In this document: positions 36,585 to 49,094 of the stretch, piece after piece
Layout of the letters: each line of letters opens with the position of its first letter
Position numbering within the stretch: the first letter of the stretch is position 1
Source: Octopus vulgaris
Lineage: Eukaryota
Length of the DNA: 64,000 nucleotides
Direction of reading: 5' to 3'
NCBI GenBank assembly: GCA_951406725.2
Contig: OX597822.1
Span: forward strand, 51,522,001-51,586,000
Notes under the pieces: model-generated
What the model was told of the DNA's origin: nothing
Database searches by the model: none
Seen by the model: only the letters and a program-made list of their open reading frames with translations
Program-made: the position numbers and the translations under genes

Positions 36585-38280
36585 GATTATTATTAGTAGT
36601 AGTAGTAGTAATTGTAGTGGTGGTTTTGGTGTTGATGATGATGGTGGTGGTGGTGGTGGAGGCAGAGTTGTTGGTGTTGATGCCATTGCCATTGCTAATG
36701 TTTTATTATCTTGATTTTGTATTGGTACAAAAATGAGTGGGACCTCCTCGTTCGATCTGATTGCAGTTTTACACATTCACATTCACATGGTAACGCCTAA
36801 TAAACACTTGAAAAATTAACAATAAATCAAACGCAAACCGCAGTTCGTTTTCCTGAAATTTGTTTTTTCAATTGCAACATCTCATATGAATCACAAATTA
36901 ATTTTAGAAAAATTAATTATTTTTGGAGCAAAATTCAATTACTTGAGTAAACAGAAAAAATTAATCTAGTTCACAGTGTTTCAAATTCAAATTTCATGTA
37001 CAAAATGAATCGCATCGTAAAGATGGCAAAACATCGATGCCTTTTATCTCGTTGTCAACTGCTCCAACGTGCATGTATATAGAAATTCTATACTGTTTTC
37101 TTCCCGTATTAAATAGCTGCCGTGTTTTGAAACAATTAAAACACTTGTATTTTATGTAAAAAAATGTCTGAAAATATGACTAAATGTGTTTGTATATTCT
37201 ATTTTAAATGTATTTTAATGCGAAAGTAATTTGGTTGTTATGCATATTATTTCAGGTTTTAGAGAAGTTTTTAAATTATTTCGTTTTCCGAAAACAAAAG
37301 TTTCAGAAGAAAACAAGGTTTGCCGCACGCGTACATAAATGGACAAGCACGTGCACACATGCACATATGTACATATACACATATACGCACACACTCCGCT
37401 CATAAGGTCATTAAACATAAAATATCGAATCCTGATGAACCACACATACGCCGCACATTCAGTCACTCATTCACACTCACTCACACACTCACTTACACAA
37501 TCACACACAGAGACATATTTTAGAGGCAACGTGACAGAACCAGGTTAACAAAGGTAAATCACTGCTCAGGTCGCTAATGGAGATGAAAGGACTCTTAGAA
37601 AATATTTGAGTGACTGGTCAATCGATAACTCAAGAAACGGATTGTTTGATAACTAGTTGATTTTAATGACAAGATCACTTGAAATAGAAACGGTGAGTGG
37701 TTTTCTTATCGGCAAATTGAAATTTTGCAAAATACAACAAAATCATTTCCTTGCTATCTGTCGTAATCACTTATACAAAACAAGACTAATCGTTTCTCAT
37801 CTGGCAAGTTCAAACATAGTAATTCAGGAAATCTTTATTGTATAATCGTTTACAGTACACATGAACTATGGTGGTATGTTAATATGGCAACTCTCTCTTT
37901 TAGACATAACAACCAAATGGCGCTCAAATATTATGCTACCTTCATATTAAGATAAGCATTTTGGAAACATATGGTCTTCGATACTTTGGAACTAAAAAGA
38001 AAGTTGGAATGATTGCAAGCGTATTACATTTAACGTCGCATCTTTATCGTCATAGCTTTTTTAGCACAAGAAAAACTATTTTAGAATCGTGAATCTGATG
38101 CATATATTTTTGGTATGCAAATTGTCAATTCCATTCGTGCACCAGGGAAAAGTATCAGCTAACAAAATTGGGATAAATCTCATCCTACAAAAAATAATGT
38201 ACATATTTCATCCGCTTAGATTTTGCGACTACAAAATTTGTTTTTGAATCGATTTTCTTAGAATTACATTTATAAAAAAA

Positions 38281-38390
38281 CTACGGTCATATCACACTGA
38301 AAGCTCACGTTATCGTCTGATCACCGAAGTTAAGCGACCACTTAATATTTAGATGGGGGACCGGTTGGGAAAACTCGGTGCGGTAAGTTT
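38281..38390 (+). pseudogene. 5S rRNA-derived sequence (pseudogene or SINE3-type head)
   Basis: CTACGGTCATATCAC..TGAAA..TCGTCTGATCACCGAAGTTAAGC..GATGGGGGACCG..TGGGAA..CGGTGC.GTA is colinear with metazoan 5S rRNA, with a short internal deletion after box A. Confidence 0.9.
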
Positions 38391-38394
38391 ATCT

Positions 38395-38457
38395 CCTAAG
38401 GTGGAGCTTCAGCATGGCCGAAATCAGATGAATGAAACAATTAAGGGAGTAAAAGAG
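38395..38457 (+). mobile_element. SINE family A-type 3' tail fused behind the 5S sequence
   Basis: AAGGTGGAGCTTCAGCATGGCCGAAATCAGATGAATGAAACAATTAAGGGAGTAAAAGAG aligns with 49020-49089. Confidence 0.8.
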
Positions 38458-40219
38458 GAAACTACTTACATATTTACACACATGACTGCATAAGGTTTAT
38501 AAGTCTATAAATTAAACCTACGCATTTATGAAGAGTTCATTAATTGGAAAACAGTGTCTACAACTAAAAGGTAAATGTTAAACGCTAGCTTAAAAGCCGC
38601 ACACCGTGCGGGGTTTTAGGGTAGCTCTTGGGAAGAGATAATTGGGCCTGCGGCCCAAAACTAACGAGAGCTAAATAGCATGTCTATAATACGTCTATAA
38701 TGGCTATATGCGCCAGTGGTGTTTGATTAGAGGTTAAGGGCGGATGAAAATTAATTCTGTGATGTAATCATTGTGGTTTCGCAGTCCCAAGCTGAATTCC
38801 AACTGTTAGCCAATTTGACCCAAAGTTCTTATTTTGATGTAAAATTAACGACTAGAATGTCATTTATTTACCACTTGATCTGTGACGTCGTCTGACAAAG
38901 GCCAACCAAAATGGCGTGAATCAGCGAAGCTATATCTGCTAGAATTAGCAACCCAAATGCTTTTTATATTAGATCCCAAATGAATTGTATTTTCAATCTC
39001 GTAATCATCCTGATTCCCGAAATTTTATGTCTATGTACAGAAAATATAAACTGAAATACAGGGGTCCCAGAGGGTCATAAATAATTTCCCTTTTATTATA
39101 ATGGATACAGAGAGACTACACTGATTAAGTGTGATACAGAAATTATATGAATGTATGGTCACGTATTTACATCGGTATCTTTTAAGTAGATTTTGTTTAT
39201 GAAGAACTTTTATTTATCATATTTGCAAACACCTTTAAATACTTAACACTAGTGTTGTTATCAACTACTTATAAGAGTAATGAGTAATCAGCTGACTACT
39301 CGGAATATTAAGTAATTAACTCAATTGCCAGTGATTCATATTCTGTAACCAGTAGTACAATGGCTGCATGGTCTGCTTATGTCTTAAAGGGATATCTTAG
39401 ACTTGCAGAGAATAGGTTCGATAAATAAACTTTTTTATCGCTTTCAAAAATTAGCAACGTGACTCTCTTTAGTTCAAGATTTTTTAAGGCCAAGTAGAAA
39501 TGGATCACATTCATTCCAAATGTAGTATCTTAAAATTCATGTCAGATTAAATTCTTTGCGAAGATCAAATTTCTTCCTATTTATTTCGCTTATAGCTGAT
39601 GGATGTAATACATTCTGACCTAGTTTAAGACCTAATATTCATGATTCGAAATTCAAACTAGTAGGTCATTCTGCGTTTAATATCATGACCGATTTTATAG
39701 CCAAATCAAGTTTCTATCAATTCCTATCCTATTCTTTGCAGTCAACACTTTTCATCACCTACTCAAACGTAAAACTCTCTGAACAATTATACTTCAGTTC
39801 GCATCAAACTTTATTGGCAGCAACAACTTGAATAAAGCTGATTGGACACGTTTCAACCAGATGAACAGACTGGACGCAAATGAAAACGACATTGTGAGGT
39901 ACCAAGTTAGCAAAAGCATATGTCAGACAGAGACTTAAATTAAATATGCTGTATAAATTACAGTGAGAATAAACCCTGTGTAGATGGATTATTTTCCTTA
40001 TTTATTTGAATGGTTTATGTATATAAAAGATTAGCAGCGGCATCTTGTAAGTCCAAGCCACTCCAGACTCATAACCAGTCCCTGGATGCTGGCTTTGCTG
40101 GGTGGAGGTACTTAACACCCATGTTCGAAAACTTTTAAGGACACAGAAAGCTTGTGTCGCGTAGCCAACTAGGAACGGTGTTTCTTGGGGCTAAATAACA
40201 GTAACATTCTTCTCTTTCC

Positions 40220-48706: not shown

Positions 48707-49089
48707 GTAGGAGTGGCTGTGTGGTAAGTAGCTTGCTAACCAACCACATGGTTCCGGGTTCAGTCCCACTGCGTGGCATCTTGGGCAAGTGTCTTCTGCT
48801 ATAGCCTCGGGCCGACCAAAGCCTTGTGAGTGGATTTGGTAGACGGAAACTGAAAGAAGCCTGTCGTATATGTATATATATATATATGTGTGTATGTGTG
48901 TGTATGTGTTTGTGTGTCTGTGTTTGTCTCCCTAGCATTGCTTGACAACCGATGCTGGTGTGCTTACGTCCCCGTCACTTAGCGGTTCGGCAAAAAGAGA
49001 CCGATAGAATAAGTACTAAAAAGGCGGTGCTCCAGAATGGCCGCAGTCAAATGACTGAAACAAGTAAAAGAGTAAAAGAGAGTAAAAGA
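48707..49089 (+). mobile_element. tRNA-derived SINE family A, well-preserved copy
   Basis: A-box-like TGGCTGTGTGG, B-box-like GGTTCAGTCC, CTTGGGCAAGT CORE-like motif, internal (TA)(TG) tract, tail repeat GTAAAAGA(GA). Confidence 0.93.
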
Positions 49090-49094
49090 GTATA

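What the first reader, a model, noticed from the sequence alone, without database searches (positions are those of the whole stretch)
38281..38457. 5S rRNA head fused directly to the 3' tail of the tRNA-SINE family: candidate SINE3
Seen: a near-full-length 5S-like sequence followed within a few bases by the same terminal ~60 nt (ending GTAAAAGAG) that ends SINE family A. Knowledge: 5S-derived SINE3 elements exist in fish and some insects, and SINEs exchange modules while keeping the LINE-recognised tail. Inference: either a 5S-headed SINE family or a one-off template-switch chimera.
Basis: partly seen in the sequence, partly recalled or inferred. Interest (0 to 1): 0.7.

Follow-up and report, generated by a model that had tools for sequence, protein, structure and literature searches.

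The report
LINE tail repeatedly captures pre-5S rRNA
This is a decayed copy of 5S ribosomal RNA joined to the last 60 bases of a jumping gene; it is not a self-copying SINE family but one of at least 90 separately joined copies in this genome, likely made when the jumping gene's copying enzyme hopped at one fixed spot onto unfinished 5S RNAs.

Summary
In detail: a decayed near-full 5S copy (Rfam 35.6 bits) is followed by a 60-nt tail 82% identical to SINE A's end. It is not a chance neighbour: 51 exact junctions occur genome-wide against 0 in the control. It is not a SINE3 family either. All 77 catalogued 5S+tail copies have different junctions, where about 35 unchanged ones would be expected from one master. 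Many junctions begin with the 3' trailers of real 5S genes (arrays on C4 and C5). One 5S gene variant is joined to six tail types. The tail is the two-hairpin 3' end of several endonuclease+RT LINEs and of SINE A. It often starts at one fixed point: alone, or behind U6 (54 exact copies) or a pre-tRNA-like head. Best reading: recurrent template jumps from the LINE tail onto U-ended Pol III precursors, like U6/L1 and U6/L2 chimeras. The focal copy is old, and its promoter boxes (recalled positions) are damaged. The scan already noted this process at other loci in this genome. This report adds the 5S-wide test, the source genes and a measured breakpoint hot spot.

The parts
38278..38284 (+). 5' copy of a 7-bp direct repeat (possible target-site duplication); its last 3 bases coincide with 5S positions 4-6
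   Evidence: read in sequence; found by the repeat test. Weak on its own: AT-rich.
38279..38390 (+). Decayed, sense, near-full-length 5S rRNA copy; similarity starts at 5S nt 4 (38282); 8-nt deletion near 38335-38339 (5S nt 58-65)
   Evidence: Rfam 35.6 bits, E 1.5e-5; alignment to a cluster gene; organism B (run X19) still has 8 bases there
38391..38397 (+). Spacer, likely a remnant of a 5S gene 3' trailer (resembles the ATCTCC-type trailers of 2 of 128 C4 genes)
   Evidence: trailer table; the match for this decayed copy is weak and inferred
38398..38399 (+). A-rich linker bases at the fixed start of the tail
   Evidence: same position in 77 5S chimeras and 54 U6 chimeras
38400..38438 (+). 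LINE/SINE 3' tail, A-type: hairpin 1 (38400-38419), hairpin 2 (38421-38434) and the following GAAAC motif; decayed in this copy
   Evidence: alignment of tail types; pair counts; this copy's own fold is no better than shuffled, z 0.02
38439..38457 (+). Terminal short repeats of the SINE A / LINE D type
38459..38465 (+). 3' copy of the 7-bp direct repeat
49021..49090 (+). Comparator: the same tail at the end of a SINE A copy elsewhere in the window

Best explanation
The element is one of many separately joined 5S-plus-tail copies, likely made when a LINE reverse transcriptase copied only the last ~55-60 bases of a LINE or SINE A RNA and then jumped onto the U-rich 3' end of an unprocessed 5S transcript. 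Shown: the tail is the 3' end of several LINE families encoding endonuclease and RT, and of SINE A. It folds as two hairpins, and many insertions begin in the unpaired A-rich linker just 5' of hairpin 1. Junctions are unique and often start with real 5S gene trailers. The same join occurs behind U6 and a pre-tRNA-like head. Inferred: the RT binds the two-hairpin tail and primes at an AT-rich target. It then stops at the linker, either at the base of an upstream stem or because the RNA ends there, adds a few untemplated bases, anneals to the oligo-U end of a Pol III precursor and copies it to its 5' end. The products are likely dead on arrival: they lack the upstream element shared by the 5S genes and often carry a T-run before the tail. 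The focal copy is an old, A-tailed example whose internal promoter has since decayed.
For: 77 of 77 5S+tail spacers distinct, 8-23 nt long, against ~35 unmutated copies expected from one master. 25 of 77 spacers share at least 6 starting bases with an extant gene trailer, against a shuffled mean of 1.4 and maximum of 5. Diagnostic head sites follow the trailer class and cross tail types. For the ATAGCAC variant, whose source genes lie at C5:16.47-16.50 Mb, 30 of 49 copies were examined: 15 have tails of 6 types with 15 distinct spacers, 3 have SINE A, 2 are the genes themselves, 10 have other sequence. Of 81 copies picked only by the TCACAC trailer, 76 were recovered, and all 76 are followed by a repeat: 53 SINE A 5' end, 14 tails, 3 SINE B, 6 other repeats. 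U6+tail: 54 exact matches, control 0. Tail B starts within -4..+5 nt of hairpin 1 in 23 of 30 copies chosen on hairpin 2 alone. The break lies in an unpaired linker in LINE B, LINE C and SINE A. Donor ORF of 1038 aa with RVT_1 and Exo_endo_phos_2. Tail donors number 1936, 1110 and 562 exact copies, which is what Kojima 2015 (PMC4494074, section 19) expects when copies arise by independent switches.
Against: Trailer class and tail type are not fully independent (chi-square p 0.013 on 47 copies, small counts). I read this as age stratification, but small masters could contribute. The expected-identity figure ignores slippage in T- and A-runs, which also makes junctions differ. TSD support is modest: direct repeats of 6 nt or more around the whole unit in 12 of 57 copies against a null mean of 4.4 (max 10), several of them in TA repeats. 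The hot spot is weak in the young LINE D (24 of 30 copies long) and moderate in LINE C (6 of 30 at the break). No LINE with exactly the A-type hairpin was found, so the focal donor may be SINE A RNA. Jumping versus RNA ligation cannot be told from DNA alone.
Confidence: 0.75

Rival explanations
1. The two RNAs are ligated first (RtcB-like): a cleaved LINE tail is joined to the 3' end of pre-5S or U6, and the fused RNA is then reverse transcribed. The copies are still independent chimeras.
For: A fixed tail start fits a cleavage site in the unpaired linker. RNA ligation is reported for U6/L1 (PMC6789731, search listing only; PMC11838501 preprint passages).
Against: The 5S side ends at many different points of the trailer, and most junctions hold a few bases that match neither partner. 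This fits untemplated RT additions better (inference). 5S is also joined to the intact 5' ends of SINE A and SINE B, which are expected to be Pol III starts and poor ligation acceptors (recalled).
Confidence: 0.1
2. A true 5S-headed SINE (SINE3) family, or several small ones, transcribed from master copies by Pol III and moved by the LINE.
For: Many copies with one architecture. Heads are nearly full length (57 of 77 start by nt 6). 55 of 77 spacers lack a T4 run. Trailer-tail association p 0.013.
Against: No two of 77 spacers are identical. The best candidate group (L002, L004, L019) dissolved: its head variant is a C5 gene variant found on six tail types. 5S+SINE A copies with the same junction are no closer than others: body distance 0.163 against 0.176, shared derived sites 0.65 against 0.60.
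Confidence: 0.05
3. Two steps: a 5S retropseudogene inserted first, and a short tail later inserted at its T-rich 3' end.
For: Solo tails are common and favour AT-rich sites.
Against: Partner-less 5S retrocopies are essentially absent (76 of 76 unselected copies have a partner). Direct repeats around the tail alone are at null level (4 against 2.5) while those around the whole unit are above it (12 against 4.4). The focal 7-bp repeat encloses both parts.
Confidence: 0.07

Closest known systems
U6/L1 and 5S/L1 chimeric retrocopies of mammals (bioRxiv 10.1101/2025.02.02.635956 = PMC11838501, passages read)
   Same: Small RNA 5' of a LINE 3' end in one insertion; each a unique event that does not self-propagate; full-length sense U6.
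   Different: There the 5S parts are often truncated and antisense. Here 5S is near full length, sense, and keeps its precursor trailer, and the LINE part has a fixed length of about 55-60 nt.
U6-L2 and U6-Mon-1 chimeras of platypus; U6-AnolisSINE2 chimeras of anole (PMC4476161, passages read)
   Same: Stringent LINEs that recognise a 3' structure; small RNAs are copied only with a LINE or SINE tail; short LINE segment; short or no TSDs.
   Different: Vertebrate, U6 only and mostly 5'-truncated. A fixed breakpoint, a solo-tail hot spot and gene-specific trailers were not in the passages I read.
SINE3 (5S-derived SINEs: zebrafish SINE3-1, HaSE3 and others; definition in PMC4494074 and PMC10886601, passages read)
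   Same: 5S-derived head plus LINE-derived tail.
   Different: SINE3 copies descend from masters. These copies have unique junctions and heads indistinguishable from 5S gene variants.
5' extensions on SINEU-2 and the 5S addition that founded OS-SINE1/AmnSINE1-type heads (PMC4494074, passages and section 19; PMC4824008, passages)
   Same: Repeated independent addition of a small RNA to the 5' end of a retroposon; the proposed route to new SINE heads. The 53 5S+SINE A fusions here have that precursor structure.
   Different: No amplified descendant was found here.

Membership tests
SINE3 (5S-derived SINE) | 5S rRNA-derived head | tested here: met
   Rfam RF00001, E 1.5e-5
SINE3 (5S-derived SINE) | LINE-derived 3' tail shared with a partner LINE | tested here: met
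   tail types B, C and D are LINE 3' ends; the A type shares hairpin 1 and the terminal repeat with LINE D
SINE3 (5S-derived SINE) | Many dispersed copies | tested here: met
   51 exact junctions; 90 distinct copies seen
SINE3 (5S-derived SINE) | Copies descend from a master: shared junction and diagnostic changes | tested here: not met
   77 of 77 spacers distinct; head variants cross tail types
SINE3 (5S-derived SINE) | Intact internal Pol III promoter and read-through into the tail | tested here: inconclusive
   Focal copy: deletion of nt 58-65 and changes at 67-71, 88, 94, which fall in box A, IE and box C by recalled coordinates. 22 of 77 spacers hold a T4 run. Young copies keep an intact head. 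Transcription was not measured.
SINE3 (5S-derived SINE) | Existing entry in Dfam, Repbase or SINEBase | not testable with these tools
   libraries not available; paper searches listed no octopus SINE3 in the listings or passages seen
Small-RNA/retroposon chimeric retrocopy (U6/L1, U6/L2 type) | Small RNA in sense, 5' of a retroposon 3' end | tested here: met
Small-RNA/retroposon chimeric retrocopy (U6/L1, U6/L2 type) | Each copy a unique joining event; donors far outnumber chimeras | tested here: met
   donors 1936, 1110 and 562 exact copies
Small-RNA/retroposon chimeric retrocopy (U6/L1, U6/L2 type) | One insertion footprint (TSD or empty site) around both parts | tested here: inconclusive
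   7-bp repeat at the focal copy; 12 of 57 against null 4.4; no empty site seen
CR1-clade LINE as donor | RT phylogeny places the ORF in the CR1 clade | not testable with these tools
   Pfam gives only endonuclease + RT; homologs carry no clade names. The C-terminal motifs look CR1-like from recall only.

The most novel reading that the evidence does not exclude
The two-hairpin LINE tail exists as a free ~55-60-nt RNA bound to the LINE protein, left by 5'-to-3' decay stalling at the hairpin or by a cut in the linker. It acts as a portable primer that inserts alone or grafts itself onto any U-ended Pol III precursor: a genome-wide SINE-prototype factory whose products also time-stamp past 5S gene variants.
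Probability: 0.25. Interest if true: 0.7.

Novelty: new variant of a known kind. Interest (0 to 1): 0.42.

Why it matters
It removes a false 'new SINE3' and replaces it with a countable example of the step thought to create SINEs: a small Pol III RNA acquiring a LINE tail. Here that step can be seen at least 90 times for 5S alone, with a sharp breakpoint, which makes the mechanism (RT stall, RNA end, or ligation) testable with one enzyme and a 60-nt RNA. The chimeras also preserve precursor 3' ends and older 5S gene variants. The 102A variant dominates the chimeras while 121 C4 genes carry 102C, and the TCACAC-trailer variant has 81 dispersed exact matches but no gene array in the stretches read. 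They thus form a fossil record of 5S rDNA turnover in a likely octopus genome.

Tried and rejected
Whole-window Rfam at gathering level and ARAGORN found nothing. Chance adjacency: rejected. A single master: rejected. The one candidate mini-family with the ATAGCAC trailer: rejected. A 5S+SINE A subfamily: same-junction pairs are no closer. A hammerhead or HDV-like ribozyme in the tail was considered by eye against recalled cores and not seen; no tool tested it beyond the Rfam scans. Clade assignment of the LINE by Pfam, Atlas and homolog search gave no clade name. Empty-site search: the focal insertion is present in runs X16, X17 and X19, and X20 did not cover it; the young copy L089 was uninformative because both flanks are repeats. 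Source genes for the TCACAC trailer were not found among the 128 C4 and 8 C5 copies read. 5 of the 81 TCACAC matches and 19 of the 49 ATAGCAC matches were not in the tallies. Paper searches that listed no report of this element. Subscription papers (for example the 1994 octopus SINE paper and the 2010 Ceph-SINE paper) and repeat libraries could not be seen, so SINE A and B are working names. No supplements were read.

Full report
Observation. Window 38279-38389 is a decayed 5S rRNA copy (Rfam 35.6 bits, E 1.5e-5). Nine bases after it a 60-nt segment begins (38398-38457) that is 49/60 identical to the end of a SINE copy at 49021-49080. A 7-bp direct repeat encloses both parts (38278-38284 and 38459-38465). 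The host genome has 2.8 Gb in 227 contigs. I take it for an octopus from size and recall; the best named homolog of its LINE protein is from Argonauta (62%), and earlier notes also say octopus.

The arrangement recurs. A search with the element gave 789 candidates, 40 of them scored, many spanning both parts. A strict junction pattern gave 51 exact matches against 0 for the control. Pooling loci from several searches (a selected set, not a census) gave 142 dispersed 5S copies: 77 with the tail, 53 joined to the 5' end of SINE A, 3 to SINE B and 9 others. Searches added 13 more tailed copies, 90 in all.

It is not one family. The 77 spacers between 5S and tail are all different, 8-23 nt long. 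At the heads' divergence (median 94.7% to a gene) one master would leave about 35 unchanged (slippage not modelled). The real 5S genes lie in an array of 128 at C4:35.21-35.33 Mb with a shared AT-rich upstream element and many different 3' trailers before the T-run, and in a decaying group of 8 at C5:16.47-16.50 Mb. 25 of 77 spacers share at least 6 starting bases with one of these trailers, against 1.4 for shuffled spacers (the first two bases belong to the mature 5S end). Diagnostic head sites (61, 73, 112) follow the trailer and cross tail types. The best candidate for a small master lineage (L002, L004, L019) failed: of 30 of 49 copies of that head variant, 15 carry six tail types with 15 distinct spacers, 3 carry SINE A, and 2 are the C5 genes. 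Among 5S+SINE A fusions, pairs with the same junction are no closer than other pairs. Against this reading, trailer and tail class are associated (p 0.013, 47 copies). The youngest heads (102C, as in 121 C4 genes) go mostly with tails B2 and D, and older heads with A, B and C, so I read the association as age layering.

What the tail is. Tail types B, C and D are the 3' ends of LINEs whose ORF ends shortly before them. One copy holds a 1038-aa ORF with endonuclease and RT domains. The clade looks like CR1 by recalled motifs and was not tested. LINE D is young and ends in the same terminal repeat as SINE A and the focal copy. Twelve hand-picked tails keep two hairpins: 96.5% of cells paired, 9 with two-sided changes, 8 of them in hairpin 2 (the structure came from folds of such tails, which favours it). 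Exact donor counts are 1936, 1110 and 562.

Fixed breakpoint. Among 30 tail-B copies chosen on hairpin 2 only, 23 begin within -4 to +5 nt of hairpin 1, one at -10, one at +14 and five run on into the LINE (nominal p about 1e-22). For LINE C, 6 of 30 break there; for LINE D, 24 of 30 are long. In LINE B, LINE C and SINE A this point is an unpaired A-rich linker between an upstream stem and hairpin 1. The same join follows U6 in 54 exact cases, control 0 (five are one tandem duplication), and a tRNA-like head that keeps its trailer and spans 113 nt (L098). Of 76 5S copies chosen by trailer alone, all 76 have a repeat directly behind them, as expected if the enzyme needs its own tail to start.

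Mechanism. Shown: unique junctions, precursor trailers, shared tail, hot spot, several donors and acceptors. Inferred: the RT primes on the tail, stops at the linker, adds a few bases and jumps to the oligo-U end of a Pol III precursor. Whether it stalls on a full-length RNA or runs off a short free tail RNA is open. RNA ligation and two-step insertion are less likely. Direct repeats of 6 nt or more surround the whole unit in 12 of 57 copies (null 4.4, max 10) and the tail alone in 4 (null 2.5); this is modest support. No empty site was seen.

The focal copy is the most diverged of the set (75%). It is present at the same site in three other organisms' contigs, including one about 11% diverged that still has the 8 bases missing here. 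So the insertion is old and the deletion came later. By recalled coordinates the deletion and substitutions hit box A, the intermediate element and box C. Its tail no longer folds better than shuffled.

Comparison. It works like U6/L1 chimeras (PMC11838501 preprint, passages) and, more closely, like the U6-L2 and U6-Mon-1 chimeras of platypus, where a stringent LINE gives small RNA plus short tail (PMC4476161, passages). By the criteria in PMC4494074 section 19 it is a sum of independent retrocopies, not a SINE. In the passages read, mammalian 5S/L1 chimeras are often truncated and antisense, unlike these. I also read passages of PMC10886601, PMC4824008, PMC4758252 and PMC5786205; none described this element. 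Searches listed no octopus SINE3, but repeat libraries and subscription papers were out of reach. Earlier notes of this scan describe the same process at other loci for 5S, U6, pre-tRNA, 5.8S and 7SL. My reading was written before that look-up, and those notes are not independent support.

Verdict. A real feature, not a SINE3: a new variant of small-RNA/LINE chimeric retrocopies, with a fixed-length tail and a record of past 5S genes. Interest 0.42.

Noticed in passing
G000:C4:35207683-35334828 (L231-L250): Array of 128 5S genes in both orientations with a shared AT-rich upstream element and many different 3' trailers.
   Followed up: yes
G000:C5:16474611-16499937 (L385, L386, L410-L412): Second, decaying group of 8 5S genes carrying the older 102A variant and the trailers found in many chimeras.
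   Followed up: yes
L038/L039 (C25:5354954-5355202): Two complete 5S copies head to tail, each with the same gene trailer, followed by non-repeat sequence: a possible double jump.
   Followed up: partly
L252-L340 (TCACAC-trailer set): 53 fusions of full 5S to the intact 5' end of SINE A, the structure proposed for the birth of 5S-tRNA composite SINE heads; no sign of amplification.
   Followed up: yes
L345-L374: LINE D: 562 exact tail matches, many near-identical long copies with open frames, clustered at C1:70.7-74.3 Mb; likely recently active.
   Followed up: partly
L370 and L192: Tail duplicated in tandem, the second copy restarting at the same fixed point.
   Followed up: no
L098:1552-1664 (-), L111: tRNA-like head spanning 113 nt (possibly with an intron), with trailer and T-run and no CCA, joined to tail B.
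   Followed up: partly
L175-L179 (C1:132.45-132.53 Mb): One U6+tail A chimera carried in five tandem ~20-kb duplicates.
   Followed up: no
dispersed 5S copies starting at nt 1: 12 of 43 are preceded by the same four bases ending in G, and many lie in TA repeats: possible target preference plus an untemplated base.
   Followed up: partly
window 48990-49025: This SINE A copy lacks the ~40 bases that normally precede the tail and resumes at the fixed tail start.
   Followed up: no
window 38585-38890 and 38486-38632: A separate repeat just downstream, abundant in other organisms' contigs; run X19 skips 38486-38632. No other copy among the 1.38 Mb held.
   Followed up: no
L251, L253, L379, L401: 5S copies joined to a different short terminal segment ending in GAT repeats, suggesting a second LINE group with its own short tail.
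   Followed up: no
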